DNA of 64,000 nucleotides from a virus (taxonomy: Duplodnaviria; Heunggongvirae; Uroviricota; Caudoviricetes), in the IMG/VR virus record IMGVR_UViG_3300015177_000008, positions 1 to 64,000 of that record. One strand, written 5' to 3'. Shown in pieces: positions 1,652-26,900 of this stretch. The stretch's first letter is position 1. The number at the start of each line of letters is the position of its first letter. The notes beneath the pieces are model-generated. The model saw only the letters and a program-made list of their open reading frames with translations, searched no databases and was not told the DNA's origin. The position numbers and the translations under genes were made by a program.

Positions 1652-1744
1652 TTATCCTTTGCTCCTAGATATGGTGGGCGTTCCATGCCCACCATTAAGT
1701 TAGTACCTACCTATTTTTACAGAAATGATTATTTTTTTCCACAA

Positions 1745-4700
1745 TCAAAGCTGACCAATCCTAACTCGAAGGACATTATTGTCATCATAAACGTCAATCC
1801 TCTGACCATTTATAACCAATCTCCCATTGCCGCCACTATTGCTGTTGATCTCAAGCGTTCCATTTTTACCAAATCGCCATCCGGCTCGTCCGCTTACGAA
1901 GTTTGTTGATTGCAAGTCACCTACCTTTGCATTTGTGATAGTACCATCCTTAATATACGCACCATTCATGTATGCAACGCTGTTTTCGATAACAAATGGT
2001 GTGGTGATCTTTCCGTTAACTGAGTTGACTAGACCAAATCGATCTGCTTGCACCAAAAACTGGGAAAGCCCCGTGGTGTCAATTCCAAGCGCAATACCTG
2101 CGACATATTTTTGCCCACCACTTGTTGACGTTTCCATCTTCAACGTCCACGCGGTTGAAACCTTTTTGTTAGTATCAGCAATAGCAGTTGCCTGCTCTTG
2201 AATTGTCGCTGTATTTCCATCAACTGATGCTTTTAAGGTGTCAATTCGTCCACTTAGAGCATTGTCGGCGTTTGTGCGCACAGTCGCCTCAGACGTAATC
2301 GCGGCATTAATATCTTTGCTCGTTTGCGCCTGTAGATTAGTGATACTAGAAGCCAAAGCCGAATCAGCGTCAGTTCTGGCTTTCGTCTCTTCTGCTACAG
2401 CCGCCTTAATATCTTTACCCGTCTGGCTCTTCAATGTGGTTATCTGTTGTGCTAAAGATTCATCAGCAGTTGCTCGGGCAATTTTTTCTTCAGATATAGC
2501 TGCACTAATATCGCCTTCAATTTTGGCTTGTAACGATAGTATTTCTTTTGAAAGTGCTTCATCGGCACTAGCTCGTGCCTCTTGTTCACTCACAATTGCG
2601 GCAGAAATATCATCGTTAATCTTTGATTCAAGTTTGGTGATTCTGCTTGCAATAGCATTATCAGCATCTACACGAGCCGTTGTTTCTTCAGTGATTGAAG
2701 CTCTGATATCCTCATTTATTTCAGCGCGAATTTCTTCCATTTTCGTAGCCATTGCAGATATATCGTCTGCAAAAGCCTTCTGAGTTGTGGTGATCTTCGC
2801 ATTACTCACCATCTGCTTGTGCTGATCTTCATCCTGACGCAAAGCAAGATCGATGTTTGTTTTAGCCAATGCCTCAATGTTTGTCGTAACTTCGGCACTA
2901 GAACGTTCAACTTCAGCCACGGTTTTTTTCATTTCTTCAATGGTGGCTAAACTGCTATCTACAGTTGACTTCATCGCCTCGATTTCTTTCGCGTTTGCCA
3001 AGTCACCCTCAACTCGTGCTTCACGCTCCTCCGCAATTAAAGCCGATGAATTGTCAAGTGCTGCATTTGCCGCCTCAACAGCTCCAGCTACAGCTTTACC
3101 CTGCTCTGATACAGTTTCCTGCAACTGAATTAAGGCAGCGTTAGAGTTTGCAACCTCCTTAAGTGCGTCTTCCACCTTGCTTACAGTACTGGAAACATCC
3201 GTTTTAAGATCGTTTTGAGCTTCTTCAAGCCGCCGATCTGTCTCTGTAAACTTGTCATCAAGGCTTTTCAGACTTTCATCCATCTGTTCATAGATGGAAT
3301 CCACCGCCTCCTGAGATACTTTTGAGTCGATTTCCTCAAGTAAAGCCTGGCCAAGTTCAGAAGACGTAATTTTGCCTGTCAGGAACGACAGTACATCGCG
3401 AGTTGTCGCCTCTGTCCCCAAGTTTGAGTTCGGAGGACTTAACATACCTCGCTTGTTCGATGCTCGAACCCAGTAATACCACGTTTCGCTATCCCCAAGA
3501 CCAGCATGTGTAAAGGTGGTGCTTGCAGACTCTGCGATCAGTTTCGCTGTATCCAGATTGTTGGTCTGGGATGCGTAAACATTAATGTGATCAAGGTCTA
3601 CCGAATCTGGATTAACCCAATTCAGTATCACATTACGATAGTCCCCAACGGCCGTTAATGACGTTGGGGCATCCGGCGGTGTCATTGTGCCCAGCACCTG
3701 ATAAACGGTACTGATAATCTCTGTTTTTTTACCGTTGAATGAAACCGCATACAGCTGGAAGTCGTAGCGTCCATTCTCCGCAACATTAACGATTTCGTAT
3801 TGCTCTTCGGTTACACGCGCCGATTGCCAGTTCGATACATTGTTTTCATCAGAACGTCGCCAACTGATCCAATACTCTGGAGATTTCCCTTCCCATGTTG
3901 CAGTCAGTTTTACTGACAGGTTGCCAGGGCTTGAGAGATAAGTCCCTTCGGTGATTTGCAAATTAGACGGCTTGGAGTAAGTCGGGTCCAATACCGTCGT
4001 ATTTTGCGGGATAAGCGTTGCACCATTGTCGATCGCCTCATATTTAGACGGATTGTTCTCAACAGCGGTGATGTCAAAGCTACCCGGCGTTTCCCCCTGC
4101 GCGATGTTAACGATGCGAACGCGCATAGGTTCGAGGTCTGGTTCTGTAATAGTCCAGACGCCGTTCAAAACAGGCGTTTCAGCCGAAGACAGGGCTTTTG
4201 AAAACGTAACTTTTGTTATATTTTCGCCAGTTTCAAGAACATCGCGTTCAACGATTTTGCCTTCCTGATTCAGTATTCGAATAAAGCAGCCGCCTTTGGC
4301 TAACGACACAGGCGCATCGAGTGTGACGCTGTTTTTGGTAAACGCCACAATTCGACCTGAGTTACGTTTGCCTGCGCGATATTTGTTCTGAATCAGAACG
4401 GTTTCACCAGGCATCAGAAATGACGCGTCTAAGCCGGCAGTAAATGTAATTACATCCGACTCCATTCTGGCGGTATATAAAAGCCACAAACCAACTCGGT
4501 GAGCCTGCCCTCGGCTTGTACAGCCAAATGCTACGACTTCTGTTTTACGCTCACCATAACGGCGCATTGCGTCCTGATCTTCGACGTACTCGATGTTTTG
4601 CTTATAACCGTCCTCCTTGTTGTTGTAGGTTACGAGCGCAACGGATGGGCGATCTTTACGCGCAGAACCTTTATAGGTAAACAATCCATCTTTGACGTTG

Positions 4701-5911
4701 GAGTTGGTAAACATCATTACCGGATCTGATGGGCTATCCTGCATGATGTTAACCATCCCACCAGCCCAAAACACCATGCCGCGGAATGCTCCAGCAATAT
4801 CCTGAATTAGCCGGTATGCGTCCTGTCGACTGGTGATCTGCGTATTGATTACAAAGCGTTTCTCTTTGCCACCAAAGCCATCATCGACCTCTTCGTCACA
4901 ATATCGACCAATCTGGTACAACTGGCCAAGGTCAATCATAGATTCCGACACATACTGACCAAGGCCATATCGAGCATTGGTCAGCAAATCAAAGAGAATC
5001 CACGCGGGGTTCGAAGAAGACAACAGCTTAAAAGTACCATCCCATACCCCAGCGTAAGTGTTACTTGACTCGTTATAGTTTGAAGGTACTCGAATTTTTA
5101 GGCCACGCACCAGATAAGAGCGAGATGGCATGGTGCTGCCGAATTGCTCAGAGTTTACCTTCAATCCAACCAAAACAGAGTTTGGATAGTTCATCGGTGT
5201 ATCGACAATTTCCCCGATTGAATCCACCCATGTATCGTTATAGAGATACTGGCTACTGTTATCATCGGTAATACGGACTACACGAACCTTGTATGCGCGT
5301 CCAGGCTTAGGCAGCTTCAGCTCGTAGCTACGGTAATAAACGCCGGTCTTCTTTGCTGTTAGCTTAATGCCAACGCTTTTTTCACCTTCCGCGACCACAT
5401 CTACAAATGTTGAGTCGCCATTTGCTATCTGGAACTTGTACTCAACAGTCGTACCGTTCGTGTCACCAGTTTTTTTATCTATGCTTCGCAAAGAAGGAAA
5501 CTTCATGATGACACGAACCCGATCAGCTTCATCGTTATCGATTGAAACCGTTACATAATGTGTTTTTTTTAACTGGATATTGACGGATTTAGGCGTTTCA
5601 ACGAAATCAAAGCCAGACATTGGAGTCTGGTCTTGTGAACCGTCGCGAAAATCCCATGTGATTCCGCTGAAGTTGGAGGAACCGTCTTCATTTACAATCG
5701 GCAGATCGTCGATAAAAATAGATCTTGCGCCATTTACTAAGCCGCCAATTACCCCTTCCCCAAGAAGATCGAGGATAGCGGCCATTGCACGAGAATTTAC
5801 GGTATCGTCGGCTTCAACCGGTGTACGACTGGAGCTTTTGCTGCTTTTTTTACCACCCGCACCGGCAATAAACAGCGGTAGCTTTTTCTTCTTGAACTGT
5901 TCCATGTTCAA
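1745..5911 (-). CDS. tail tip / host specificity protein (lambda J-like central tail fibre)
   Basis: 1388 aa, matches my recollection of lambda J family; C-terminal coiled-coil repeats; position after the I/K/L/M genes. Confidence 0.85.
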   Translation of the reverse strand: MNMEQFKKKKLPLFIAGAGGKKSSKSSSRTPVEADDTVNSRAMAAILDLLGEGVIGGLVNGARSIFIDDLPIVNEDGSSNFSGITWDFRDGSQDQTPMSGFDFVETPKSVNIQLKKTHYVTVSIDNDEADRVRVIMKFPSLRSIDKKTGDTNGTTVEYKFQIANGDSTFVDVVAEGEKSVGIKLTAKKTGVYYRSYELKLPKPGRAYKVRVVRITDDNSSQYLYNDTWVDSIGEIVDTPMNYPNSVLVGLKVNSEQFGSTMPSRSYLVRGLKIRVPSNYNESSNTYAGVWDGTFKLLSSSNPAWILFDLLTNARYGLGQYVSESMIDLGQLYQIGRYCDEEVDDGFGGKEKRFVINTQITSRQDAYRLIQDIAGAFRGMVFWAGGMVNIMQDSPSDPVMMFTNSNVKDGLFTYKGSARKDRPSVALVTYNNKEDGYKQNIEYVEDQDAMRRYGERKTEVVAFGCTSRGQAHRVGLWLLYTARMESDVITFTAGLDASFLMPGETVLIQNKYRAGKRNSGRIVAFTKNSVTLDAPVSLAKGGCFIRILNQEGKIVERDVLETGENITKVTFSKALSSAETPVLNGVWTITEPDLEPMRVRIVNIAQGETPGSFDITAVENNPSKYEAIDNGATLIPQNTTVLDPTYSKPSNLQITEGTYLSSPGNLSVKLTATWEGKSPEYWISWRRSDENNVSNWQSARVTEEQYEIVNVAENGRYDFQLYAVSFNGKKTEIISTVYQVLGTMTPPDAPTSLTAVGDYRNVILNWVNPDSVDLDHINVYASQTNNLDTAKLIAESASTTFTHAGLGDSETWYYWVRASNKRGMLSPPNSNLGTEATTRDVLSFLTGKITSSELGQALLEEIDSKVSQEAVDSIYEQMDESLKSLDDKFTETDRRLEEAQNDLKTDVSSTVSKVEDALKEVANSNAALIQLQETVSEQGKAVAGAVEAANAALDNSSALIAEEREARVEGDLANAKEIEAMKSTVDSSLATIEEMKKTVAEVERSSAEVTTNIEALAKTNIDLALRQDEDQHKQMVSNAKITTTQKAFADDISAMATKMEEIRAEINEDIRASITEETTARVDADNAIASRITKLESKINDDISAAIVSEQEARASADEALSKEILSLQAKIEGDISAAISEEKIARATADESLAQQITTLKSQTGKDIKAAVAEETKARTDADSALASSITNLQAQTSKDINAAITSEATVRTNADNALSGRIDTLKASVDGNTATIQEQATAIADTNKKVSTAWTLKMETSTSGGQKYVAGIALGIDTTGLSQFLVQADRFGLVNSVNGKITTPFVIENSVAYMNGAYIKDGTITNAKVGDLQSTNFVSGRAGWRFGKNGTLEINSNSGGNGRLVINGQRIDVYDDNNVLRVRIGQL

Positions 5912-5922
5912 AAAATCCTTGT

Positions 5923-6516
5923 TTACATTAGCTGGTCAATCGTGATTGAAGAACTCACAACCTGTGAGCCAACCAGAATTTCCTCGCCATAGATAAGTTG
6001 TACTGGGTTGCCCTGGTTTTCTGTATTTTGAGGGCCGTCGAAATAATAAGAGTTCGAGTTATCTGCCTGTCTCACACTTTCGTTAGTGGCTTGCGGCGAT
6101 ATGATTTGTGATATGCCGCCCATCATCAGTGACAAACCGAGAGGTGCTAAAGCAGGCATCACTACCGCCGATACAACCAACAAAGCGGCCCCTACTACCG
6201 TCTGAAACCACCCAAAAGCAGATCCACCGCTTCCTCGCGGAACAGGTGTAATGCGGATTTTGGCAATGTTGTCAGACTGCCCCATCATCTGATATTCACT
6301 TTCGTCAACAGACCACTTGTGGCCCTGTTTATTGGTGATCTGGATGTGGTAACTGTCATAGGTTTTGATATTGCGCTTCATCCATGCTTTAAACCCAGGC
6401 TTGTTGGCTTCAATTAAATCCAGAGCCTGTTTTGTATTGCGCACCTTTAGATGCCAGTGGCGACCAAAATGTTTAGCCATAGGTCCGCCAAGCTGCACAT
6501 GAACTAACTCAGACAC
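5923..6516 (-). CDS. tail assembly protein I-like
   Basis: 197 aa, hydrophobic C-terminal segment; synteny between K and J. Confidence 0.65.
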   Translation of the reverse strand: MSELVHVQLGGPMAKHFGRHWHLKVRNTKQALDLIEANKPGFKAWMKRNIKTYDSYHIQITNKQGHKWSVDESEYQMMGQSDNIAKIRITPVPRGSGGSAFGWFQTVVGAALLVVSAVVMPALAPLGLSLMMGGISQIISPQATNESVRQADNSNSYYFDGPQNTENQGNPVQLIYGEEILVGSQVVSSSITIDQLM

Positions 6517-7328
6517 GTCTCATCTCCCTTGAGCAAGTCTCTGTGACGCAAGTGATGCGTCGTATGTTTCTGATACATTCCGCCGTAATAAGCACGACAA
6601 CTAAGACGGTCGATCTGGTGATGAAGAATCATTCCATCGCCGATATAAACCGCGCAGTGATCTGGCATTTTCCCGTATTGAATAAAGAAGACGTCCCCAC
6701 GTTGAGGCTCTGTTCCAGGCGCAAGCCGTACCAACCCTTCGTTTCGGTAGTTCTGGTCGAGAATGTCGTTATCGCCGGTGTACCACGATGGAATATGCAG
6801 GTGTGCGTTCGGGTTAAGCTCGACGTTAAACTCACGCTTCAAATAGTCCCGACACAACATCCAGCAATCGAATACGCCAAATACATACGGTCTACCCAGG
6901 TATGGCATTTCGAAACCATCAGGTGTGATCACATTCATCTCGCTAAAATGGAAAGGGGCATCTCCCTCAACATTCTTGCGAATAGCCAGAATCATCCACG
7001 GAACTTCCGTCGCTTCACAGCCTGCACGATCGGCATCAGATGCTTCTGCTGATTCATCAGTATGTGAATGCCAGATTGCGATAACATCACCCGCATCCTC
7101 TGCCGCCATAATGTCGTCAACGTGCATTACAAAAGTGTTCTGCGGGTTCTCCGATACATTCCGCGCTTCCATAAAGCGATATTTGTCGCCATTAGTTCTA
7201 ACCAGAAAGCCACACGCTTCATTAGGGTAGCGATTTATGGCGCAGAGATAGATTTGCTGCATAACGTCAGAGCCAAGCTCAGGGATTGCTTTATTACCCA
7301 TATCGCGTAGCTCCAATAAACCCGCCAA
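6504..7328 (-). CDS. tail assembly protein K-like (JAB/MPN plus NlpC/P60-type domains)
   Basis: HSH..D metal-site and C/H peptidase-like motifs (AIWHSHT, NEACGF); synteny; true start may be the internal Met at about 7262. Confidence 0.65.
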   Translation of the reverse strand: MAGLLELRDMGNKAIPELGSDVMQQIYLCAINRYPNEACGFLVRTNGDKYRFMEARNVSENPQNTFVMHVDDIMAAEDAGDVIAIWHSHTDESAEASDADRAGCEATEVPWMILAIRKNVEGDAPFHFSEMNVITPDGFEMPYLGRPYVFGVFDCWMLCRDYLKREFNVELNPNAHLHIPSWYTGDNDILDQNYRNEGLVRLAPGTEPQRGDVFFIQYGKMPDHCAVYIGDGMILHHQIDRLSCRAYYGGMYQKHTTHHLRHRDLLKGDETCLS

Positions 7329-8025
7329 AATGGATCACTCCGTTGGCAAAATAATTCCGACGCGCATTACAGGCGTCATAACGTTTTGTGCAGTAATCAG
7401 CACCAGACATAGACGTCTGCTGGTTATTTTTGTCGAAATATGGACCGGTATAGCCGCATTCTGGCCCTCGGTATTTCCACGGGCAGGTGTTTTTAATGAT
7501 CTGACGATACGGCAGTTGCACCCCCATCAAATCGAACACACTGGACAATTCAAACTCGACAACCTGATGAGTTTCGAGAGTTTTCTGTTCGATAAACCAC
7601 ATTTCATCCGGGAAATGTTGGTTTGGATCTGCTGTTGGGTTGCCGTCTTTAAAATTAACGGCATCGAGGAAGCGAGCCAGCGTCATCTTGCGAATAATGC
7701 GGCAGCCAACAAGATCGTCGTTTGCCTGAACTTCCGCAGAGACGGTTCCGGCAAAGTTCGACACCTGAATTTTTGGACGTGGCAACGTTCCCTGGCCCGT
7801 TTTGTCAAAACCTGATGCTTTGATTGGCCACGGCTCATATGTCACTCCTTGCCAGACGACCGGTTGCATCAGTTCGTTTGTTCCGGCGTGGAAGAATAGC
7901 TTCCCCCCTGAAGTTGTGTTCGACATATCCAGTACGAACAACTCAATGAGTGCAGAGGGAGATAAGCTCTGAATATCAGCTTTAATTCCCATTGTTTCAT
8001 CCTTGAAATAAGTAGGCGCTAACAT
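7294..8025 (-). CDS. minor tail protein L
   Basis: Matches lambda L from memory (VTWQG..Y.P.PI..SGF, NTC.W.YRG.ECGY); synteny. Confidence 0.8.
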   Translation of the reverse strand: MLAPTYFKDETMGIKADIQSLSPSALIELFVLDMSNTTSGGKLFFHAGTNELMQPVVWQGVTYEPWPIKASGFDKTGQGTLPRPKIQVSNFAGTVSAEVQANDDLVGCRIIRKMTLARFLDAVNFKDGNPTADPNQHFPDEMWFIEQKTLETHQVVEFELSSVFDLMGVQLPYRQIIKNTCPWKYRGPECGYTGPYFDKNNQQTSMSGADYCTKRYDACNARRNYFANGVIHFGGFIGATRYG

Positions 8026-8074
8026 CCTGTCAGCGCCACAATAATAGTAAATTAGTACTTACTTATCAAGGTGC

Positions 8075-8410: not shown

Positions 8411-8452
8411 CTCACATCCTTGTGAGACAGCCCCGACCGGGGCAGTCGATAG

Positions 8453-14495: not shown

Positions 14496-14569
14496 TGATG
14501 GAAAACTCCTTTTTCCGTTAATTCTACGCATTCATTGCGCTAATAGTAAGTATATACTTACTAATTGAG

Positions 14570-15763: not shown

Positions 15764-15842
15764 GCTCTCTCCCTGTTGTTGTCGGTCGCTCTCATTACTG
15801 GCCAAAAACCCTTTAGACCAAAAGTAAATAATGCGACTGGCG

Positions 15843-17110: not shown

Positions 17111-17154
17111 AACGCTTTCTCTCCACTTGGGCGGCTTTCACCGCCCAATATCGG

Positions 17155-18075: not shown

Positions 18076-18085
18076 TTCTTGCTCC

Positions 18086-18116
18086 TACAAAAAGGGTGGG
18101 CGTATAGCCCACCCTT
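18086..18116 (-). terminator. intrinsic terminator after the major capsid gene
   Basis: GGGTGGGC-tatac-GCCCACCC hairpin followed by a U-tract on the minus strand. Confidence 0.5.
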
Positions 18117-18148
18117 AAACATAGATAATTACTTATCTACCGCACTGA

Positions 18149-19024: not shown

Positions 19025-19049
19025 CTATCAATTCCCTTTGATTTAGATG

Positions 19050-19937: not shown

Positions 19938-19958
19938 AAAAATTCCCTTTGTTACTTA

Positions 19959-21533
19959 TCACTCGTTCTCTTGAGTAGATGAGTCCCCATTCCCTCGGGG
20001 TTGATCTTGCCCGCTTTCTTGGGCTGCACCACGATCATAAGTAAGTACTGACTTATTTTCAAGGGTATTTAGATCATTTTTTGGCGGAAAATTCAAGAGA
20101 TCTTTATCAAATTCCTTTTTCATCGCCTCAGTAATGTTCGGGAAAATCTTCTCAATAAGCATTTCCATCTGGTGACGACGTACAGAGCCCGGTGCCTGAA
20201 GTAATGACAGTTTCTCGGCAACAGAAAATTCATCTGTAAGGCCACGAATATCGAAACTTTCTGGATACGCAATTAAAGAGTGGTCTTCGTCCAGATCTAC
20301 CCCCATCCATTTCGCAACCAGTAGCATGATTTGGCGTTCAGCCCTTTCCAGACGCTCTGCTTTTGTGACAAGCAAGCTATTTACACGCTGGAAGTCATAC
20401 ATTTTTGCGGCACCAGATGAGTTATCGATTCCCTGTGCGTTGTCCTGCTTCGTTCGCTCACCAGCTACACCAACTGAATGGTAGATTTCGTTAATCACCG
20501 TCTTAATCGTAGTGATGATCATCTGAGCTTGTTTCGGGTCTGGTGACAGATAAAACGGCTGGTTTCCACCTTCAGAATCGTAGGTGAAGACTCGCTTTGT
20601 GCCCATTTCAAGCACTTTAGTGTGGTTTTCATCACCAGGTAAAAGCGACTGTACCGGTATAGCCAACTGGCTAAATGTCTGATCCTGAATAATGGCATCA
20701 AGGTTTGACAGATAGTTTGCAACCGCACGATCAAGATAAGCGATATCATCGATCAACGATGGGCTGAAATACGGTGATTCACTTTCTCCAATACAATCAA
20801 CAGGAAACACAGGAACTACGCCGAGATTATGCTCACCGCTATCCTCTAAAATAACTTTTGCCTGACGGCGACCTGCTCCACCAGCGCCCTTCTTCACTTC
20901 CTCACGGAACAGATACCACTCGTTTTGTGTCCACAGACGATAACGTTGGTATTCCTGACCTGTAGAAGTAAAAGGATCTGCGTCATCACGAGCGACCTCC
21001 ACAATTAACGCCCACAACATATTCCCGTCGTCGTCCCATGCCACATCCAGCATTTGCTGAGGTGAAATCCAGTAGGCGTAGGCGCGAGCATCTTTCTTTT
21101 TCTCGTCAGCTACTGACTCAACATCACCACTCATCGTGCTATCGACAACAACCCATATGCGACCGTAAATAGACGACTGCAAATCAATAGCGGCCATAAA
21201 TGAGTCAATAGAGGCATTCTGGCGAGTCGCACGTTTCCAGAAATTGCGGATCTGCTCTGGTGCCTCTTCGATATTTCTATGAATGTCTTCTTTAAAGAGA
21301 TATTTGTTGATGAGGTTTACCACCTCACGAGTGTGGTTGAAGCGATAAGCACGCTCAACTCGCTCCTTAAACTCCTGATCTCCCTCTTTAAAGTAACGAA
21401 AGATATTGTCTGTAAACCAACCACGCCCGCCAGCGTAAGTGCTGGCGAGGAAGTCCCAATGTTCTTTTTTCTTTTCGTATTCCGGGTGGCGTCGCGCCAC
21501 CAGATCCTTAATTTGTTTATCGTTCAATTCCAT
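19959..21533 (-). CDS. portal protein
   Basis: 524 aa, position immediately after TerL, acidic C-terminus. Confidence 0.8.
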   Translation of the reverse strand: MELNDKQIKDLVARRHPEYEKKKEHWDFLASTYAGGRGWFTDNIFRYFKEGDQEFKERVERAYRFNHTREVVNLINKYLFKEDIHRNIEEAPEQIRNFWKRATRQNASIDSFMAAIDLQSSIYGRIWVVVDSTMSGDVESVADEKKKDARAYAYWISPQQMLDVAWDDDGNMLWALIVEVARDDADPFTSTGQEYQRYRLWTQNEWYLFREEVKKGAGGAGRRQAKVILEDSGEHNLGVVPVFPVDCIGESESPYFSPSLIDDIAYLDRAVANYLSNLDAIIQDQTFSQLAIPVQSLLPGDENHTKVLEMGTKRVFTYDSEGGNQPFYLSPDPKQAQMIITTIKTVINEIYHSVGVAGERTKQDNAQGIDNSSGAAKMYDFQRVNSLLVTKAERLERAERQIMLLVAKWMGVDLDEDHSLIAYPESFDIRGLTDEFSVAEKLSLLQAPGSVRRHQMEMLIEKIFPNITEAMKKEFDKDLLNFPPKNDLNTLENKSVLTYDRGAAQESGQDQPRGNGDSSTQENE

Positions 21534-21559
21534 TTGAATAACCTTAGATAATTACCTAC

Positions 21560-22816
21560 CTATCGAGAACCACCAAGAATAACACGGTTTTTGACTGGAT
21601 ACCTACGATGTACTGGATAGCCCAATGCGTCTGCACTATGCTCAATGCCACCTGTCTTATCCATATCTCGTGTTCCAGGCTTGTAGATGACTTTTTCCAG
21701 TGAATCAATCAAATGCTTGCACTTCGGATCGATATACAACCGGATATCTCCAGATGCGGTCATCAGCATTCGGTTAACAGCATTAACACGATCCGCAATT
21801 GGCGGGTGCTTTTTCGAATAATCGACACGTAAGAATCCCTTCTCTTTGAAAATGTCGACGTCAGACTCCCCGCGAGCATGTTGGCGATAAGCACCTGCCG
21901 GATCTGGAAATACCGTTATCTGTGATTTCCAGCGCCAGAAGCGTCTCTCAAGCTCATCACAAACCTCTGCCGTGTTAGAGGAAAAGAGCACCAATTCATC
22001 AATTGCCCATAGCTCACCATTTGGCTGAGGTTGCAAAATTACTGAAGACATCGGGTCAATGTTGAAGTCCTGCCCTACCCATATAGGCAACCGAGGGTTG
22101 AACTGAAGCGGTTTTACATGCACGTTACGATCGAACGGGTAGTAAACGCGCCCGGACATGTTCTCAAAGCTCGCCAGGTACTCCTGAGCGAACGATTTCG
22201 GGTCCATATCGTTCTTAGCAGCTTCAATTTCCGCCGTAGGCACAAACGGAGAATCGGCAGTTACAAACTGCCAGCTCTTCCACTGTCCCTTTCTTTGCAG
22301 CTCTACGTTCTGGCCTATAGTCCACAGTTTGTGAAATTCCGAGAAGCCTTTTGGCGTACCAATGATCAGTGCACCGCCGCGTGTCGATGAAAGAGTAGGT
22401 CGTAACACCTTGTACCAGGTGTCAGCCTTCATATCCTGAAATTCATCAAGCACTACAAAATGCAACGCTACGCCGCGCAGAGTGTCAGGCTTATCAGCAC
22501 CTTTGAGGGCGATCTCCGAACCGTTCTTCAACACGATTGTCATCGTGGTGTCGTTCTTTTTCCTAACCCACTTACGAGGCAGAACTTCCTGTAGATCGTC
22601 CCACAAAATCTGGCGAGCCATCTGGTAAGTAGGAGCGACATACCAGACCCTTTGCTTTTTTTCCTTTGCCGCCGCACGAATAATAGTGGAGATCGACAAC
22701 CGGGATTTTCCCCAGCGTCGACCAGCACAAACAACTTTAAATCGATGCGGAGACTGGAAGACTTTCATCTGTCCAGAATGCAGTTGCACAAGACTGAGCG
22801 AGGACGGGATTGCCAT
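21560..22816 (-). CDS. terminase large subunit
   Basis: Walker A GRRWGKS near N-terminus, Walker B VVLDEF, C-terminal nuclease-like acidic motifs. Confidence 0.85.
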   Translation of the reverse strand: MAIPSSLSLVQLHSGQMKVFQSPHRFKVVCAGRRWGKSRLSISTIIRAAAKEKKQRVWYVAPTYQMARQILWDDLQEVLPRKWVRKKNDTTMTIVLKNGSEIALKGADKPDTLRGVALHFVVLDEFQDMKADTWYKVLRPTLSSTRGGALIIGTPKGFSEFHKLWTIGQNVELQRKGQWKSWQFVTADSPFVPTAEIEAAKNDMDPKSFAQEYLASFENMSGRVYYPFDRNVHVKPLQFNPRLPIWVGQDFNIDPMSSVILQPQPNGELWAIDELVLFSSNTAEVCDELERRFWRWKSQITVFPDPAGAYRQHARGESDVDIFKEKGFLRVDYSKKHPPIADRVNAVNRMLMTASGDIRLYIDPKCKHLIDSLEKVIYKPGTRDMDKTGGIEHSADALGYPVHRRYPVKNRVILGGSR

Positions 22817-23448
22817 TATTCGTCCTCCCCTTCACTTCCATCATCTGTCGCATCAAATTCGCTTAGAGCTTCTTCTTCCAACGTCTCAAGCAATTCGTCA
22901 TCGATGATTTCAGGCTCGTCGTCTTCCTGACGTAATTTCGCCACCTGGGAAGGCGTAAGCTCACCAAATACCAGGTTCGGAATTTCTTCCTCGTCATTTT
23001 CCGCATGATCCATGCCCAATGCTTTGGACGAAACTTCAAAGCATTTTGCAAGGGTATTACTGGCTCTCTGTAAGCTCTTGAGAGAATCCTCAATCGCCCC
23101 TAAAGGCTTACCCTCACGTTTGGCCGTAGTGACTTCGACCATCACCATCTGCCCCAACGCATACGCCCAGCCGTCATAACGTGTACGACGTTCTTCTATC
23201 TTTTCCGCACGAGCTTTAGCGCGAAGCTCTGCGTCAGATTTAAGAGACTCACGAACCATCTTCCCAACAGAGTCCGCGCCTTTCTCTAATCCTCGCTTTT
23301 TGAAATGTCTGGAGAGTGTTTCACGACGAATGCCGTACTCTTCCTCCAGCTTTGAGAGTGTATATTCGCCTGACGTCCATTTGGCTTCAGCTTCGGCCCA
23401 CTCCGCTGGTGTCAGGCGAGTTTTTACCTCGTCTTTTTCGACCGTCAT
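22816..23448 (-). CDS. terminase small subunit
   Basis: 210 aa, N-terminal HTH-like segment, acidic C-terminus, stop overlaps TerL start. Confidence 0.6.
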   Translation of the reverse strand: MTVEKDEVKTRLTPAEWAEAEAKWTSGEYTLSKLEEEYGIRRETLSRHFKKRGLEKGADSVGKMVRESLKSDAELRAKARAEKIEERRTRYDGWAYALGQMVMVEVTTAKREGKPLGAIEDSLKSLQRASNTLAKCFEVSSKALGMDHAENDEEEIPNLVFGELTPSQVAKLRQEDDEPEIIDDELLETLEEEALSEFDATDDGSEGEDE

Positions 23449-23544
23449 AGATCCCTCTAAAACACACAGAGCGCGTCCATGCGCTCTAAAACAACTTGTT
23501 TACTGCGTATGCTAACCAACTTGTTTTCTGGGGTGTTTAATTAG

Positions 23545-23641
23545 GTCTGGGCATGTCTTACTAAGCCTGCTTCCGTATATATTTAATAAGTTACTTATTA
23601 TTTATATATACAGAAGCAGGTCTTTAAATAAGCTCCCAGAC
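23545..23641. repeat. ~97-bp composite imperfect palindrome upstream of terS (cos/pac or late-operon regulatory site candidate)
   Basis: Outer arms GGTCTGGG..CCCAGACC, inner arms CCTGCTTCCGTATATAT..ATATATACAGAAGCAGG, central AATAAGT/ACTTATT; shares an exact 22-mer with 57455-57476. Confidence 0.5.
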
Positions 23642-23644
23642 CGA

Positions 23645-23911
23645 TTACATCACCAGTAACTTCGCTTTGGCTCGACCTAAAGTGGTTAACCCAAGAGTCC
23701 GGCGGTGATAGCGATTGTCACTGCGTTGGCGCGTATGCCCTTTCTCCACCAGCCCCTTTTTTATCAGAGCGCGAATTGAGAACTGGATACTTTGCTTTGT
23801 TGTCTTGTACGGCAAAACTTCAAGCAATTCGTCCAGATCAAGTAGATGACCTCGCTCATAACCGAGATTGAGCGTTTTGATGATGTCCTTTTGTTTGTCG
23901 GTTAACGTCAT
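23645..23911 (-). CDS. small winged-helix-like DNA-binding protein (hypothetical)
   Basis: 88 aa, basic, helix-rich; last gene of the ParB operon before the palindrome. Confidence 0.35.
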   Translation of the reverse strand: MTLTDKQKDIIKTLNLGYERGHLLDLDELLEVLPYKTTKQSIQFSIRALIKKGLVEKGHTRQRSDNRYHRRTLGLTTLGRAKAKLLVM

Positions 23912-23920
23912 GGCAAATCC

Positions 23921-24811
23921 TTATGCCGGTAAAGCAATTTCTAACGGTTTATCCAAAGGTTGTTTGTCGAATGCCAGCAGTGGCAGCGTGTCAGGCAGTC
24001 GACGGCCAAAGTCAGGGTTTCGGTACACACCATACAACGGAGACGTAAAGCTCAGGTTGTGAATGTCCTTGAGCAGCTTCACAATGCTGGCCTCGTCCAC
24101 CAGACTGTCGGCAATGTCCTGAATCGTCGTGCCACGATTCCGCCCAGCTTTTGCCAGGGAACTGTTCTTGTGGTAGTCCGCCACCAGATCACGCAGTGCA
24201 CGGCGACGACGAGACTCGCTCATTGCGAACAACTCTTTGACGATCGCCTCGTTATCACCCGGGTCAGAACGGAAATGGCGCTGGAATACACGCAGTGCAC
24301 TTTCATAGCTCTTCGGTCGCTCAGGGCGGATGAACTTAAACCCTGCTTTCATGGCGAAGGGATTGTATTTGCTCATCGAGGACTGGATCTCAATGATTGG
24401 CCGGTCATGCATCCTGCTAACCAGGTTAATCATTCGATAAGAGACGCCTACGCCACGATACTGAGTATCCACAACTGAGCGACTGATCACCGCAAAGTTG
24501 TTATTCACGTACCGACCCCAGTACTGGTTAGCCACGGTGGTATTAGTGGTTGGTTTCAACTTAGGAAACATGCGGTGGCGAGGTGCCAACAGTAGTTTCG
24601 GGTAAGCCATAACCACGACGCCCACCAGACGGTCATCAAGTTCGCAGCGATAGTAAGTTGGCGCGAAAGGTTTGCCGTCTGTTTTGTAGTGAAGCGACTT
24701 AAGAGCGTGCCAGTCCTCTACAGTTCCCTTTGTAACAGTCATTCGCTCCAGAAAGTCCAGATGACGCGGAAACTCTTCAGGGCGGTAGCGTTTAATGATG
24801 ATGTCCGTCAT
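23921..24811 (-). CDS. GNAT-fold acetyl/acyltransferase domain protein with ~120-aa C-terminal extension
   Basis: GNAT motif A (VVDTQYRGVGVSYRMINL) followed by beta5-like NPFAMKAGFKFI; 4-nt overlap with upstream ATPase gene. Confidence 0.5.
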   Translation of the reverse strand: MTDIIIKRYRPEEFPRHLDFLERMTVTKGTVEDWHALKSLHYKTDGKPFAPTYYRCELDDRLVGVVVMAYPKLLLAPRHRMFPKLKPTTNTTVANQYWGRYVNNNFAVISRSVVDTQYRGVGVSYRMINLVSRMHDRPIIEIQSSMSKYNPFAMKAGFKFIRPERPKSYESALRVFQRHFRSDPGDNEAIVKELFAMSESRRRRALRDLVADYHKNSSLAKAGRNRGTTIQDIADSLVDEASIVKLLKDIHNLSFTSPLYGVYRNPDFGRRLPDTLPLLAFDKQPLDKPLEIALPA

Positions 24812-25473
24812 AAATGAACCTCATCATGACTACCATTGTGATATTCCACCTTCACGCGTTCTTTGTAGTGCTTGGTGATCTGCATATCCGGGCGCAGCGC
24901 GTTCTTCAGGTCTTCGTGAGTCGTCGCCACCATTACCGTCGCACCAACCTTTCGAGCGGCACGCTGGAGGTTAGATGCCACAACCTGAGCGGTTACACGG
25001 TCTAGAACAGCACCGAACTCGTCAGCAGCCCACACTTTAGCGCCTGACTCAATCAGTTTGGCAATCTTGAGACGATATTTCTGGCCGTCTGACATTTCAG
25101 AAGGCTTGCGAACAAACAGATATGCATCGTTCAGACCAGCCATAGATAACAACCCAAGCGCATCACTGGTCGTTTTGCCCAACTGATCGATGACGTTAAC
25201 CTCATTATCGAAGGTAAAATCATCGATGGAGGCTACAGAAAGCCCTTCATCCTTCATCTGGCGTTGCAACTCGCGCAGCACAACGGATTTGCCAGAACCG
25301 GATTGGCCGGTGATGTACACCACATCGCCCTGCTTCACTTCCAGCTCCAGATTGTCGTAAAGCGTCCACTCTTTTTCGTCCAGGCCAAGCCCGAACGACT
25401 CAGCGATTTCCAACGTGCGCGTGGTTTTATTTACGCGTGTCTGAAACGATACGTTGATGATGTATTTGCTCAT
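24808..25473 (-). CDS. stand-alone ABC-type ATPase
   Basis: Walker A GQSGSGKS, signature-like MSDGQKYRL, Walker B VWAADEF, H-loop ATTHEDL; no transmembrane domain. Confidence 0.6.
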   Translation of the reverse strand: MSKYIINVSFQTRVNKTTRTLEIAESFGLGLDEKEWTLYDNLELEVKQGDVVYITGQSGSGKSVVLRELQRQMKDEGLSVASIDDFTFDNEVNVIDQLGKTTSDALGLLSMAGLNDAYLFVRKPSEMSDGQKYRLKIAKLIESGAKVWAADEFGAVLDRVTAQVVASNLQRAARKVGATVMVATTHEDLKNALRPDMQITKHYKERVKVEYHNGSHDEVHL

Positions 25474-26138
25474 GCAGCCATCTCCCCGGAAGAGATCTTC
25501 TCCGCATATGCCACAAATGCGTCTACCCCGCTTTCTCCCGTCATTTCTTCCATGTGGGCAAGCAAATCACCAACAACAATGGCAGAGCCAGCAGGGAGCG
25601 TTTTAAAGCCCAATACGTCGACAACACGTACTTCTTCCGCTGCAACTTCACGACTGATCTCGGTGTGTTCATCCTTCTGTCGTTTAGTTTCTTCGCCAAG
25701 ATCGATAACTAGCGAATCGGTGTCCATTTCTTCTGTCATACTGCCAACGAGAACATTCAACTCACGCTCTTCAAAGCCGAAAACCTCGATATCGTCCAGA
25801 ACAAGCGACTCAAGCTCTTTCTGTAGCTTAATTGCATCGTAATCAATGCTGGCAAGTCGGTTATCTTCAAGGCGCTTCGCACGAACCTCGTCATCACTGA
25901 GATCATCGCGAACAATAACCGGTACGCGCTCAAGTCCAGCAAAAATTGCAGCCTCACGGCGGCCGTGGCCAGTAATAATTACGTCGTTCTTATCGACCGT
26001 AATTGGCTGGTCAAATCCGCGCTTTTTAATGGCTGCGGCCAGATCTCGGATCTGCTGTTCATCATGCTTTTTGGCATTCATCTCATAGGGAATAAGATCT
26101 GCCGGGTCGCGATATACGATTTCAAACTTTTTGGTCAT
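25470..26138 (-). CDS. ParB-like nuclease domain (ParB/Srx N-terminal domain) protein
   Basis: ITGHGRREAA motif; start moved to ATG at 26136-26138, which overlaps the stop of the upstream gene (TAATG). Confidence 0.6.
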   Translation of the reverse strand: MTKKFEIVYRDPADLIPYEMNAKKHDEQQIRDLAAAIKKRGFDQPITVDKNDVIITGHGRREAAIFAGLERVPVIVRDDLSDDEVRAKRLEDNRLASIDYDAIKLQKELESLVLDDIEVFGFEERELNVLVGSMTEEMDTDSLVIDLGEETKRQKDEHTEISREVAAEEVRVVDVLGFKTLPAGSAIVVGDLLAHMEEMTGESGVDAFVAYAEKISSGEMAA

Positions 26139-26836
26139 TACATACGCTCCTTGTAGTAGTCGACCAGCCACACCAGAGCCTCACCAGCGTTCTCCATTTC
26201 ATTACCGGTGTTAATAGCCTGCTCTTTGATGATGTTTTTTATGGTTTCTGCAACACGATCTGACGCATCGAAAGTTACTTTGAAGCGCATGGTCTGATGT
26301 TCCGCACCCACACGTTCGGTTTTCTCTCGTTTGTCGGTATCGACAGGCTCATCACTACCACGAGACAACGCCTCCAGTGCTTCAAGGTCGATTGCCGCCT
26401 CTTTTGCTAAAACCATCGAGATTTCGTCGTCATACGGGGCGATTTCAGACAGTTGATAGTCAAGTTCTGACTGAATTTCTTCAATGAAGCGTTGCAATGC
26501 GATTTGGTCGTCTTCACCGTATCGCTCGTTGTCCACCAGTGACATCTGTTTAGCTACGACATCGCTAATTTTGCCCACAGAAAGCACCGGAACCGTTGAA
26601 ATTCCTTGCTCAATAGCAGCACGCCAGCGATGTTCGCCGCCGAGGATTTCAAAAAATCCATCTTCAAGTTCACGAGCCAAAATTGGCTTAAAAAAGCCCA
26701 ATTTTTCGATAGAACCTTTCAGTTTTTCAAAATTCTGCGCACCAACCGAATTGGTGTTCCAGGTATTCGGGCGAAGGTTGGCAACATCAACCTGCAAAAT
26801 CGTGATTTTTACATCCATTTTATTGCTACAATCCAC
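26138..26836 (-). CDS. ParB-like nuclease domain protein (second paralogue)
   Basis: ILGGEHRWRAA motif; true start probably the internal Met at about 26818. Confidence 0.6.
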   Translation of the reverse strand: MDCSNKMDVKITILQVDVANLRPNTWNTNSVGAQNFEKLKGSIEKLGFFKPILARELEDGFFEILGGEHRWRAAIEQGISTVPVLSVGKISDVVAKQMSLVDNERYGEDDQIALQRFIEEIQSELDYQLSEIAPYDDEISMVLAKEAAIDLEALEALSRGSDEPVDTDKREKTERVGAEHQTMRFKVTFDASDRVAETIKNIIKEQAINTGNEMENAGEALVWLVDYYKERM

Positions 26837-26900
26837 TAAGTAATCACTTACTTATTATAATAGCCAAATAACATACAAAAGGCACTAAGGAAAGAGGTTT

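What the first reader, a model, noticed from the sequence alone, without database searches (positions are those of the whole stretch)
1696..26854. Dispersed TAAGTA..TACTTA palindrome family at intergenic and promoter positions across the prophage
Related inverted repeats recur at gene junctions: 1696-1714, 8051-8066, 14544-14563 (perfect 20-bp palindrome TAGTAAGTATATACTTACTA), 18122-18139 (TAGATAA-ttac-TTATCTA), 19035-19046, 19943-19955, 20037-20056, 21544-21560, 23585-23599, 26837-26854 (TAAGTAA-tcac-TTACTTA, overlapping the -35/spacer of the helicase TATAAT promoter), and outside the late region at 37081-37096 (just upstream of a TATAAAAT box), about 55895-55915 and 63638-63656 (14-mer TAAGTAATCACTTA identical to 26837-26850). 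With two ParB-like proteins encoded nearby, this resembles the KorB/ParB paradigm of a global regulator binding operators scattered over a replicon; alternatively they are sites for a phage late activator or repressor.
Basis: seen in the sequence. Interest (0 to 1): 0.7.

Follow-up and report, generated by a model that had tools for sequence, protein, structure and literature searches.

The report
Dispersed operator palindromes of a phage-plasmid
An SSU5-type phage-plasmid carries about 25 copies of a conserved 18-bp palindrome (TARGTA-N6-TACYTA) at the boundaries of its lytic gene blocks; these are most likely binding sites for one still-unidentified plasmid-encoded regulator that controls the whole lytic programme.

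Summary
The window is an SSU5/pHCM2/pMT1-type phage-plasmid of E. coli, not an integrated prophage. The repeat is TARGTA-N6-TACYTA (18 bp). A nested or alternative 14-bp form is TARGTA-N2-TACYTA. With at most one mismatch, no spacer other than 2 or 6 occurs in the window's intergenic DNA. That DNA holds 22 hits against about 0.2 expected from dinucleotide shuffles. A 100-kb E. coli K-12 control has 2 hits.

There are 13 loci in the window and about 25 per genome, almost all intergenic. They lie in late, lysis, replication, recombination and nucleotide-metabolism modules, so they are not specific to late genes. The same junctions carry the motif in Klebsiella, Salmonella, Yersinia, Kluyvera, Xenorhabdus and Morganella relatives, and in a contig with only about 50% protein identity.

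Mismatches show no RNA-strand bias, which points to a DNA-level protein site. Several sites sit inside conserved sigma70-type promoters; others have no promoter.

Best reading: operators of one conserved, element-encoded regulator. The binder is unknown. Candidates are a ParB-N protein with an RHH-like tail, an 88-aa winged-helix-like protein and a 92-aa RHH-like protein. The KorB analogy is only partly supported. I found no description of the motif in the literature I could search.

The parts
1696..1713 (.). Family site TAAGTTAGTACCTACCTA, between the TipJ stop and the head-spike fibre start; followed by the GGTGGGC..GCCCACC hairpin
   Evidence: spacer 6, 1 mismatch; SSU5 orthologue TAAGTAGGTACTTACTTA is perfect
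8048..8065 (.). Family site TAAATTAGTACTTACTTA (nested 14-mer 8052-8065), tail M | tail L junction, inside the spacer of a sigma70-like promoter
   Evidence: Klebsiella and SSU5 orthologues TAGATAAGTAAGTACTTATCTA / TAGATAAGTAAGCACTTATTTA
14544..14563 (.). Perfect 20-bp palindrome TAGTAAGTATATACTTACTA (central perfect 14-mer 14547-14560), minor capsid | Ig-like tail protein junction
   Evidence: conserved in Kluyvera, Yersinia, SSU5; Xenorhabdus and Morganella have TAAGTA-AGGGAA-TACTTA there
18122..18139 (.). Family site TAGATAATTACTTATCTA after the major capsid gene, just upstream of an intrinsic-terminator-like hairpin
   Evidence: Klebsiella orthologue is the perfect 18-mer TAGGTAAGTACTTACCTA
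20038..20055 (.). Family site TAAGTAAGTACTGACTTA inside the 3' end of the portal gene, in the spacer of the promoter-like TTGAAA-N17-TATGAT
   Evidence: -35 and -10 conserved in 8 relatives, including Xenorhabdus and Morganella
21545..21562 (.). Family site TAGATAATTACCTACCTA at the TerL | portal junction; its last 3 nt are the TerL stop codon
   Evidence: motif present at this junction in every relative, including the distant contig L037
26837..26854 (.). Family site TAAGTAATCACTTACTTA in the 82-bp divergent region, 18 nt upstream of parB1 and abutting the helicase -10 TATAAT (26856-26861)
37081..37096 (.). 16-bp palindrome GTAAGTATGTACTTAC (spacer-2 type only), after a terminator and 4 nt upstream of TATAAAAT, before hyp 36642-37037
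   Evidence: conserved in Klebsiella and SSU5
50919..50936 (.).
   Evidence: orthologues in Klebsiella and SSU5
55890..55907 (.). Family site TAGGTAAACACTTACTTA overlapping the rnhA stop codon
   Evidence: perfect arms, spacer 6; conserved in Klebsiella and SSU5
58019..58036 (.).
   Evidence: perfect arms
63640..63653 (.). Family site TAAGTAATCACTTA (spacer 2), 16 nt upstream of the thyA start
63773..63790 (.). Family site TAGATAGATAACTACCTA at the stop of the pyrophosphohydrolase gene
8041..8069 (-). sigma70-like promoter TTGATA-N17-TATTAT enclosing site 8048-8065; followed by a hairpin that keeps pairing through compensatory changes in Klebsiella
20034..20062 (-). sigma70-like promoter TTGAAA-N17-TATGAT enclosing site 20038-20055; upstream of the scaffold-like and major capsid genes
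37070..37098 (-). sigma70-like promoter TTGTAA-N17-TAAAAT enclosing site 37081-37096
26138..26818 (-). Candidate binder ParB1: ParB/Srx N-domain, disordered acidic linker, C-terminal RHH-like domain whose strand QTMRFKV is almost unchanged in all relatives (R178 becomes K in the most distant one)
23645..23911 (-). Candidate binder: 88-aa winged-helix-like protein (CYRAN_123 orthologue), last gene before the late-operon control region
28463..28741 (+). Weaker candidate binder: 92-aa RHH-like protein (CYRAN_117 orthologue) downstream of the helicase, expressed in the Cyrano lysogen

Best explanation
The palindromes are double-stranded-DNA binding sites (operators) for one conserved regulator encoded by the phage-plasmid itself. 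This regulator ties about 25 lytic transcription units into a single regulon covering head, tail, lysis, replication, recombination, nucleotide metabolism, Dam and RNase H.

Each site has two 6-bp arms (TARGTA / TACYTA), each itself a TA-nn-TA pseudo-palindrome. The arms are 6 bp apart, or 2 bp apart. That fits a dimer-of-dimers or flexibly linked dimer.

At several units the site fills the spacer or -35 region of a conserved sigma70-type promoter, so occupancy must decide whether RNA polymerase can use it. At other units the site has no promoter and lies on the upstream stop codon or 12-18 nt before the next start. There it would act as a loading site or a roadblock.

Shown: non-randomness, strict spacing, intergenic placement, positional conservation down to about 50% protein identity, absence of RNA-strand bias, and overlap with conserved promoter hexamers.

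Inferred: the binder comes from the adjacent parB-like operon, either ParB1 through its RHH-like C-terminal domain or the 88-aa winged-helix-like protein. Because that operon is silent in the lysogen, the regulator would work as a switch during lytic development (KorB/VirB-like or Lpa-like) and not as the lysogeny repressor. The sign of regulation is not resolved.
For: - Enrichment and spacing specificity.
- Plasmid-wide distribution, 33 of 36 hits intergenic, 25 loci at unit boundaries.
- The same motif at the same junctions in Klebsiella, SSU5, Kluyvera, Yersinia, Xenorhabdus and Morganella and in a contig with only 49-54% MCP/portal/TerL identity.
- The arm R/Y position varies semi-independently, and G:U-type mismatches equal A:C-type mismatches in the sense strand (15 vs 16; 36 vs 31). 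This indicates protein reading of duplex DNA, not an RNA hairpin.
- Flanks extend the palindrome symmetrically: ATNA-...-TNAT.
- Conserved sigma70 hexamers bracket the palindrome at the portal-3' site, the tail M|L junction, the RuvC|nrdA junction and site 37082. The helicase site has only a conserved -10 abutting the palindrome. Scores >=9/12 occur in 9 of 24 sites in minus (gene-sense) orientation, 10 counting the plus-strand helicase promoter. They occur in 5 of 24 in plus orientation, two of which are themselves gene-sense, leaving 3 antisense.
- 88-aa protein: the putative recognition helix LPYKTTKQSMQFSIRALIKKG is virtually identical in Xenorhabdus and Morganella, and TK..IQF..R is kept in the distant contig. 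It was annotated as DNA-binding by the Cyrano authors.
- The lytic units flanked by sites are at background in the Cyrano lysogen.
Against: - No binding data exist, and the binder is not identified.
- Two arm spacings (2 and 6 bp, about 137 degrees apart in helical phase) are awkward for one rigid dimer.
- The distance from palindrome centre to the -10 varies from 7.5 to 13.5 bp. Some sites have no promoter at all (TerL|portal, Dam, thyA, the replication-operon start). No single promoter-centred mechanism therefore fits all sites.
- Near-consensus promoters with the palindrome in the spacer are silent in the lysogen although the parB-like operon is also silent. This is more easily explained by a lysogeny-expressed repressor or by H-NS than by a lytic-phase factor.
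- The flanking -10-like TNAT is symmetric on both sides, so part of the promoter likeness may simply be the palindrome itself.
Confidence: 0.6

Rival explanations
1. The sites are lysogeny-maintenance operators or roadblocks. A repressor made in the plasmid-prophage state sits on all about 25 sites, occluding internal sigma70 promoters and stopping read-through. This is the logic of mycobacteriophage L5 stoperators, phiC31 conserved inverted repeats or P1 C1 operators (the comparisons come from my own knowledge). The binder would be a lysogeny-expressed protein such as the 92-aa RHH-like CYRAN_117 orthologue. Its operon promoter carries site 26837-26854.
For: - Promoters that look strong by sequence (TTGAAA-N17-TATGAT, 10/12) have the palindrome in the spacer.
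- The genes downstream of them (scaffold, MCP) are at background in the Cyrano lysogen.
- Sites without promoters fit roadblocks.
- CYRAN_117 is 12-fold over background and the helicase about 5-fold in the lysogen.
- The 92-aa protein reads as beta-alpha-alpha, with a helix B (MSKAEVINAILE) typical of RHH proteins (reading by eye).
Against: - The beta-strand of the 92-aa protein is not conserved in Xenorhabdus (TYCQVALS vs KVVQFRAT), and the Morganella copy lacks the strand, yet the arms are the same there.
- The annotated master repressor (CYRAN_45-type HTH) is absent from both SSU5 records. It is only 55% identical in Klebsiella, where the motif is unchanged.
- SSU5 keeps 38 hits without that repressor.
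Confidence: 0.22
2. The sites are a phage-specific promoter element of the P1 late-promoter type. A -10 hexamer plus a palindrome centred near -22 to -24 would be recognised by an RNA-polymerase-associated activator made early in lytic growth. The palindrome would replace the -35 element.
For: - The helicase promoter has a conserved TATAAT/TATAGT with no usable -35, and the palindrome centre lies 10.5 bp upstream of the -10.
- Site 37082 is followed after 4 nt by TATAAAAT.
- Many sites are followed by TATNAT.
- The 88-aa DNA-binding-like gene sits immediately upstream of the late operon, as late activators often do.
[quoted passage not shown] The -22 palindrome of P1 late promoters is from my own knowledge.
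Against: - The centre-to-(-10) distance is not fixed: 7.5 to 13.5 bp.
- Several sites lie 12-18 nt from the start codon or on a stop codon, with no room for a promoter.
- The TNAT flank is symmetric on both sides.
- Some promoters already have good -35 boxes.
- The sites are not restricted to late genes.
- No Lpa-like family was hit among the roughly 30 proteins scanned.
Confidence: 0.12
3. The sites have a non-transcriptional role. They could be centromere-like or condensation sites (as for the dispersed SopB sites of N15), packaging or replication signals, or conserved boundary sequences that promote modular recombination.
For: - The sites are dispersed at a mean spacing of about 4.5 kb, and ParB-family genes are present.
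- The N15 precedent of dispersed partition sites in a phage-plasmid is from my own knowledge.
- The sites lie at module boundaries.
Against: - The plasmid's own parA promoter region has no TARGTA site and carries a different palindrome.
- The sites are nearly absent from the 22-kb accessory region, which has the longest intergenic spaces.
- The parB-like operon is silent in the lysogen, when partition is needed.
- Site positions relative to promoter hexamers are conserved.
Confidence: 0.05
4. The sites are a by-product. They could be AT-rich, stop-codon-rich junction sequence (TAAGTAA carries stops in two frames), an RNA hairpin in the polycistronic mRNA, or chance.
For: - TAR of the motif doubles as the upstream stop codon at TerL, rnhA and others.
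- The hexamer alone is not enriched.
Against: - Strict spacing and shuffles restricted to intergenic DNA argue against composition or chance.
- The E. coli control is nearly empty.
- Two-fold symmetry is conserved at about 50% protein identity.
- There is no sense-strand G:U bias.
- The arms alone would give only a short (6-bp) A/U-rich stem (sequence; no folding energy was computed).
Confidence: 0.01

Closest known systems
KorB operators (OB) of IncP plasmid RK2, and related ParB-CTPase regulators (Noc, VirB)
   Same: A short palindrome occurs in a dozen or more copies across one replicon, at variable positions relative to promoters. A ParB-family gene sits next to one of the sites. ParB1 has the ParB/Srx N-domain fold, with KorB, Noc and ParB as structural matches.
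   Different: ParB1 and ParB2 lack the central HTH domain that reads OB or parS. Any DNA reading would be by a C-terminal RHH-like domain. The operon is silent in the plasmid state, unlike korB. The sequence and the 6-N6-6 architecture differ from the 13-bp OB. Binding is not shown.
Mycobacteriophage L5/Bxb1 stoperators and Streptomyces phiC31 conserved inverted repeats (own knowledge)
   Same: About 20-30 copies of a 13-18-bp site lie in short intergenic gaps of both early and late operons of a temperate phage. Some overlap promoters and some lie between co-directional genes.
   Different: Stoperators are asymmetric and orientation-dependent, whereas these sites are palindromic. In those phages the binder is the immunity repressor. 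Here the annotated repressor is excluded, and the best candidates are not expressed in lysogeny.
P1 Lpa-dependent late promoters (also a phage-plasmid)
   Same: A -10 hexamer is preceded by a palindrome centred near -22, with many copies over the genome. The helicase and 37082 sites have this layout.
   Different: The distance to the -10 is not fixed, many sites lack a promoter, the sites also serve replication and nucleotide genes, and no Lpa homologue was detected.
P22 Arc/Mnt and other RHH tetramer operators (own knowledge)
   Same: Two pseudo-symmetric sub-sites lie about one helical turn apart (centre-to-centre 12 bp here), each suited to one RHH dimer. Two candidate binders look RHH-like.
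   Different: The sequences are unrelated, there are 25 sites instead of one or two, and the RHH fold of the candidates is inferred, not demonstrated.

Membership tests
KorB/ParB-type global regulator with dispersed operators | ParB-family protein with the CTP-binding ParB/Srx N-terminal domain encoded on the replicon | tested here: met
KorB/ParB-type global regulator with dispersed operators | Central helix-turn-helix domain that reads the palindromic parS/OB site | tested here: not met
   The AF2 model has the N-domain, then a disordered acidic linker (127-174), then a 50-aa beta-alpha-alpha-like tail. Structural alignments cover only about 120 N-terminal residues.
KorB/ParB-type global regulator with dispersed operators | Multiple copies of one palindrome spread over the replicon, at and away from promoters | tested here: met
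   25 loci per 112.6 kb.
KorB/ParB-type global regulator with dispersed operators | The protein binds the palindrome and represses | not testable with these tools
   Needs EMSA, ChIP or reporter assays.
N15-type dispersed centromere sites | The sites match the centromere or operator of the plasmid's own partition operon | tested here: not met
   The parA upstream region has AAACAAGTTGTTT (motif B) and no TARGTA site.
P1 Lpa-type late promoters | -10 hexamer with the palindrome at a fixed position (about -22) and no -35 | tested here: inconclusive
   Fits the helicase and 37082 sites. The distance varies from 7.5 to 13.5 bp, and several sites have no -10 or have a good -35.
P1 Lpa-type late promoters | Restricted to late (morphogenesis/lysis) operons | tested here: not met
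   Sites lie upstream of the replication, recombination, nrd, thyA, Dam and rnhA units.
Mycobacteriophage stoperators | Asymmetric site in one orientation relative to transcription | tested here: not met
   The arms and flanks are two-fold symmetric.
Mycobacteriophage stoperators | Many copies in short intergenic gaps of early and late operons | tested here: met
Mycobacteriophage stoperators / P1 C1 / phiC31 CIR | Bound by the immunity repressor | tested here: not met
   The only annotated immunity repressor (CYRAN_45 type) is absent from SSU5 and only 55% identical in Klebsiella, while the motif is unchanged. Other lysogeny-expressed binders are not excluded.
Structured RNA / intergenic mRNA hairpin | Pairing maintained with G:U tolerated on the transcribed strand only | tested here: not met
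   G:U(sense) 15 vs A:C 16 (spacer 6); 36 vs 31 (spacer 2).
Host-type intergenic repeats (REP-like) or generic AT-rich DNA | Similar density in E. coli chromosomal or prophage intergenic DNA | tested here: not met
   0 perfect and 2 one-mismatch hits in 100 kb of K-12 including DLP12. Only 100 kb was sampled.

The most novel reading that the evidence does not exclude
A ParB-CTPase-fold protein that has swapped the usual HTH for a ribbon-helix-helix DNA-reading tail (ParB1, possibly with its paralogue ParB2 and the adjacent ABC-type ATPase) loads at about 25 TARGTA-N6-TACYTA sites when the phage-plasmid leaves lysogeny. From these sites it switches on, or re-times, every lytic transcription unit. 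It would be a KorB/VirB-like clamp used as the master lytic switch of a very widespread phage-plasmid family (pMT1 of Y. pestis, pHCM2 of S. Typhi, Klebsiella and E. coli phage-plasmids).
Probability: 0.2. Interest if true: 0.8.

Novelty: new member of a known kind. Interest (0 to 1): 0.55.

Why it matters
SSU5-type phage-plasmids are common in clinical Enterobacterales: 797 PLSDB plasmids match this window. They include Y. pestis pMT1-like and Salmonella pHCM2-like elements and carry resistance genes such as dfrA51, which is in this window. How they keep about 70 kb of lytic genes silent, and how they switch them on, is essentially unknown.

A single conserved operator at the head of nearly every lytic unit gives a direct experimental handle. 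One oligonucleotide can be used for pull-down or DAP-seq to find the regulator. One motif predicts the regulon in any relative. Mutating the sites should uncouple modules.

Tried and rejected
- Hexamer enrichment alone. TAAGTA/TACTTA are at chance level window-wide; the signal is in the pairing and the spacing.
- Stop-codon artefact. Rejected by shuffles restricted to intergenic DNA and by the spacing specificity.
- RNA hairpin. Rejected by the symmetric G:U vs A:C counts.
- Master repressor CYRAN_45-type HTH as binder. Rejected on phyletic pattern, although GGTAAGTGCTTACC lies upstream of it.
- The 187-aa 'HTH regulator'. This is HicB with its own TGTTGACAnnTGTCAACG palindrome.
- Host-factor ideas from memory (SlmA GTGAGTACTCAC, Fur, TyrR, LexA, TrpR). 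The central AGTACT that resembles SlmA sites is not conserved in Xenorhabdus or Morganella, and none of these match the arms. I dropped them without a genome-wide host test.
- Pfam and PHROGs scans of about 30 plasmid proteins found no sigma, Lpa, MotA or other activator family.
- The first AF2 run on ParB1 with a shallow alignment was unusable (pLDDT 38).
- Profile search of the ParB1 C-domain against PDB and Pfam found nothing.
- Literature searches for the sequences and for SSU5 regulation found no description. A 2026 bioRxiv preprint on phage-plasmid heteroresistance could not be opened.
- Unrelated 41%-GC viral contigs with long (TAAG)n(CTTA)n palindromes share no genes with this element. 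I set them aside as probable coincidence.
- The genome-contig scan returned only 8 loci. Covariation between motif variants and protein variants could therefore not be done properly.

Full report
**What the window is.** Megablast places the window in the SSU5/pHCM2/pLF82(Cyrano)/pMT1 group of phage-plasmids. It is 98-99% identical to E. coli and E. albertii plasmids of about 110 kb. It is about 79-81% identical to Klebsiella phage-plasmids and Salmonella phage SSU5. Positions 30000-54000 are 100% identical to plasmid NZ_JBTZOT010000003.1. I used that record's annotation, after correcting small offsets, to build a gene map. I also built a 112.6-kb composite genome from the window plus the rest of that plasmid. 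The 'prophage' is therefore an extrachromosomal phage-plasmid. The structural genes run leftwards from about 26.8 kb. The remainder encodes a T4-like replication, recombination and nucleotide-metabolism set plus accessory genes.

**Checking the observation.** The hexamers TAAGTA and TACTTA are not over-represented in the window (13 and 19 copies). However, 17 of the 32 lie in the 15% of sequence that is intergenic, against 5.6 expected from a Markov model.

The decisive feature is the pairing. With at most one mismatch, TAAGTA...TACTTA occurs only with spacers of 2 bp (8 hits) or 6 bp (4 hits) among spacers 0-12. Local dinucleotide shuffles give about 0.1 per spacer. The tool's own test gives 20 matches to TAAGTANNTACTTA (<=2 mismatches) against 1.65 expected, with a maximum of 5. 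I then shuffled only the intergenic DNA, which controls for its AT-richness and stop-codon content. The arms TARGTA/TACYTA (<=1 mismatch) give 14 hits at spacer 2 and 8 at spacer 6, against means of 0.10 and 0.12 (maximum 2 in 500 shuffles). All other spacers give 0 hits against 0.98 expected.

One hundred kilobases of E. coli K-12, including the AT-rich DLP12 prophage, contain no perfect site and two one-mismatch hits. The window has 6 and 25.

Ten of the 13 listed sites are members. 19035 is not. 19943 is a lone half-site. 23585 is the centre of a separate 55-bp palindrome. The sites at 50919, 58019 and 63773 were missed.

**Anatomy.** Many E. coli-type sites are 18-mers such as TAGGTAAGTACTTACCTA. 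Because the centre is AGTACT, they contain two overlapping 14-mers offset by 4 bp.

Relatives show which architecture is primary. In the Xenorhabdus and Morganella plasmids (portal 68-72% identical) the centre is not conserved: TTTTAA, TTTAAA, AGGGAA, AGTGAA, TGTAAA. Spacer 6 dominates there, with 5 and 4 perfect sites against 1 each at spacer 2. A few sites are spacer-2-only in all relatives examined (37082, and the one upstream of thyA).

A position-frequency matrix of 58 spacer-6 sites, oriented by transcription, shows that the palindrome extends symmetrically to ATNA-TARGTA-N6-TACYTA-TNAT. Each arm is itself TA-nn-TA.

At the R/Y arm position the two halves vary largely independently. G:T mismatches (G:U in the mRNA sense) are as frequent as A:C mismatches: 15 vs 16 for spacer 6, and 36 vs 31 for spacer 2. 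There is therefore no sign of selection on an RNA hairpin. The pattern is what a protein reading two half-sites on duplex DNA would leave.

**Distribution.** The rest of the plasmid has 17 matches against 1.2 expected. On the composite genome 33 of 36 hits are intergenic, and they collapse to 25 loci.

The loci sit at the heads of lytic units:
- TipJ|fibre, tail M|L, minor capsid|tail, MCP|Ig, inside the portal 3' end, TerL|portal, and parB1|helicase;
- upstream of the holin, of the replication operon, and of the genes after primase and ligase;
- CobT|AAA, UvsY, SSB, RecA, RuvC|nrdA, thyA, Dam, rnhA and the DUF4942 methylase.

The 22-kb accessory region (28-50 kb) has the longest intergenic spaces but only one site (37082). 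Typical positions are 0-23 nt after the stop codon of the upstream gene, with the motif's TAR often being that stop codon, or 12-18 nt before the next start.

**Conservation.**
- Klebsiella phage pJN2-26 has 17 matches against 0.65 expected, at the same junctions and often as perfect 18-mers.
- SSU5 has 19+19 matches against 0.45+0.72 expected.
- A scan of viral contigs with the 18-mer recovered many SSU5-like contigs. It also recovered a 103-kb contig whose MCP, portal and TerL are only 49-54% identical, yet which keeps the motif at TerL|portal, upstream of TerS and elsewhere.
- Junction alignments show the motif at TerL|portal in every relative, while the surrounding intergenic sequence is free to change.

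**Relation to promoters.** The simple sigma70 scan ranks TTGATA-N17-TATTAT (8069-8041, minus strand) first in the first 20 kb. TTGAAA-N17-TATGAT (20062-20034) is among the top hits in the next 20 kb. Both have the palindrome in the spacer, and 37098-37070 is similar.

The portal-3' promoter hexamers are conserved in E. coli, Klebsiella, SSU5, Kluyvera, Yersinia, Xenorhabdus, Morganella and MAG L087. This holds even though the coding context differs; in Xenorhabdus the portal ends inside the motif. Tail M|L keeps T(T/A)GATA-N17-TATTAT, followed by a hairpin whose stem changes by compensatory substitutions in Klebsiella. RuvC|nrdA keeps TTGATA-N17-TAATAT/TAACAT.

The helicase promoter has a -10 (TATAAT or TATAGT) abutting the palindrome in most relatives, weaker in Klebsiella (TATTCT) and MAG L087, and no usable -35.

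Overall, 9 of 24 sites score >=9/12 as promoters in minus (gene-sense) orientation, or 10 counting the plus-strand helicase promoter. Five of 24 do so in plus orientation. Two of those five (the helicase site and the divergent 83748 region) are themselves gene-sense, which leaves 3 antisense.

The distance from palindrome centre to the -10 varies from 7.5 to 13.5 bp. TerL|portal, Dam, thyA and the replication-operon start have no room for a promoter. The sites are thus operator-like but heterogeneous: some lie in promoter cores, others between genes.

**Who binds?**
- **CYRAN_45-type HTH (annotated master repressor).** Excluded. It is absent from both SSU5 records and only 55% identical in Klebsiella, where the motif is unchanged.
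- **The 187-aa 'HTH regulator'.** This is HicB, with its own palindrome.
- **The 88-aa protein just upstream of the late control region.** The Cyrano authors annotated it as DNA-binding. It gives a sub-threshold full-length LexA_DNA_bind match (E = 0.07). Its putative recognition helix is virtually identical in Xenorhabdus and Morganella and recognisable in the distant contig.
- **The 92-aa protein after the helicase.** It looks RHH-like by eye. But its strand differs in Xenorhabdus and its N-terminus is missing in Morganella.

**Expression evidence.** In the Cyrano lysogen (PMC9928086, S1 table) the background median is 9.8.
- The parB-like operon, including the 88-aa gene, is at background (5-9.5).
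- The late, replication and nucleotide-metabolism units are also at background.
- The helicase reads 46, CYRAN_117 reads 114 and the repressor reads 96.

The two best-conserved candidate readers are therefore lytic-phase products. This favours a switch acting during lytic development. The silence of near-consensus promoters in the lysogen favours a lysogeny repressor (or H-NS). I cannot resolve the sign.

**Verdict.** The finding is a real, deeply conserved family of dispersed operators. I found no description of it in the searchable literature. It works like known dispersed-operator systems (KorB OB sites, L5 stoperators, phiC31 CIRs, P1 C1 and Lpa sites). It is not a demonstrable member of any of them. 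The regulator and the direction of control remain to be found. I rate it a new member of a known kind, of moderate-to-good interest, with a more novel ParB-N/RHH reading not excluded.

Noticed in passing
window ~23488-23527 (two copies), 37487-37500, 40895-40909, 54269-54282, 54997-55011; also upstream of parA, DnaB and others in L006: A second, statistically stronger intergenic palindrome family, GAAAACAAnnTTGTTTTC (GAAAACAA occurs 13 times against 1.07 expected in intergenic DNA). It lies just upstream of the ribosome-binding sites of many accessory genes, twice upstream of TerS, and in the parA promoter. It is probably the operator of another global regulator, perhaps the small partition protein.
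   Followed up: partly
window 23566-23620 and 57421-57477; third copy in L006 ~6948-7002: A ~55-bp palindrome, CCTGCTTCCGTATATA..TAAGTnACTTA..TATATACAGAAGCAGG, occurs in three copies: upstream of TerS, near Dam, and upstream of the replication operon. The deposited linear ends of SSU5 and Cyrano fall inside copy 1 (window ~23583). It could be a pac/cos site, an origin or a major control element. It is conserved in Klebsiella, Kluyvera, Yersinia and MAG L087.
   Followed up: partly
window 26138-26818 (-): ParB1 has an unusual architecture: a ParB/Srx CTPase-type N-domain (GGEHRWRAA), a ~50-aa acidic disordered linker, and a C-terminal RHH-like domain with the almost invariant strand QTMRFKV. 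There is no HTH. The paralogue ParB2 (25470-26138), an ABC-type ATPase and a TmcA-like ATPase/acetyltransferase follow in the same operon, which is conserved down to ~40% identity.
   Followed up: partly
window 7993-8040, 1660-1695, 18076-18120, 14496-14543: GC-rich hairpins lie between the palindrome and the next Shine-Dalgarno sequence. The tail M|L hairpin keeps its pairing through compensatory changes in Klebsiella. Two junctions (1652-1744 and 18076-18148) share the cassette GGTGGGC...GCCCACC + TAGGAGCAA. These may be 5'-terminal mRNA stabilisers or terminators.
   Followed up: no
L006 17905-17925 (rest of the plasmid, upstream of the CYRAN_45-type repressor): A 14-bp palindrome GGTAAGTGCTTACC (the inner part of the 18-mer, with the outer TA pairs lost) lies about 30 nt upstream of the putative master repressor gene.
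   Followed up: no
L006 28610-28640: The palindrome TGTTGACATCTGTCAACG lies in the divergent HicAB / UvsY-like promoter region. It is probably the HicB operator. RefSeq calls HicB a generic HTH regulator.
   Followed up: no
window 59218-64000 and 1-1650: The window is not identical to its best database match. It lacks the IS3 insertion that splits the AAA-ATPase gene in NZ_JBTZOT010000003.1. It has a different head-spike/tail-fibre allele with no nucleotide match. Minor tail L, which RefSeq marks as frameshifted in that record, reads as intact here (single stop codon), while the DUF4942 and Dam genes still contain internal stop codons.
   Followed up: partly
window 61632-62108 (-): A trimethoprim-resistant dihydrofolate reductase gene, dfrA51, lies within the thyA-HAD-dfr nucleotide-metabolism operon. 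The head of that operon carries a family site (63640-63653).
   Followed up: no
loci L012, L083, L072, L057, L080 (IMG/VR contigs, ~41% GC): An unrelated group of viral contigs carries long perfect palindromes built from the same tetranucleotide, (TAAG)n(CTTA)n and TAAGTAAGTAGTTAGTTATATAACTAACTACTTACTTA. tblastn with the SSU5-type plasmid proteins found no match in the members tested (L012, L083, L080).
   Followed up: partly
window 19938-19961 (-): A lone half-site TGATAAGTAAC lies directly after the portal stop codon. It is conserved in E. coli, Klebsiella, SSU5, Kluyvera and Yersinia but has no partner arm.
   Followed up: no
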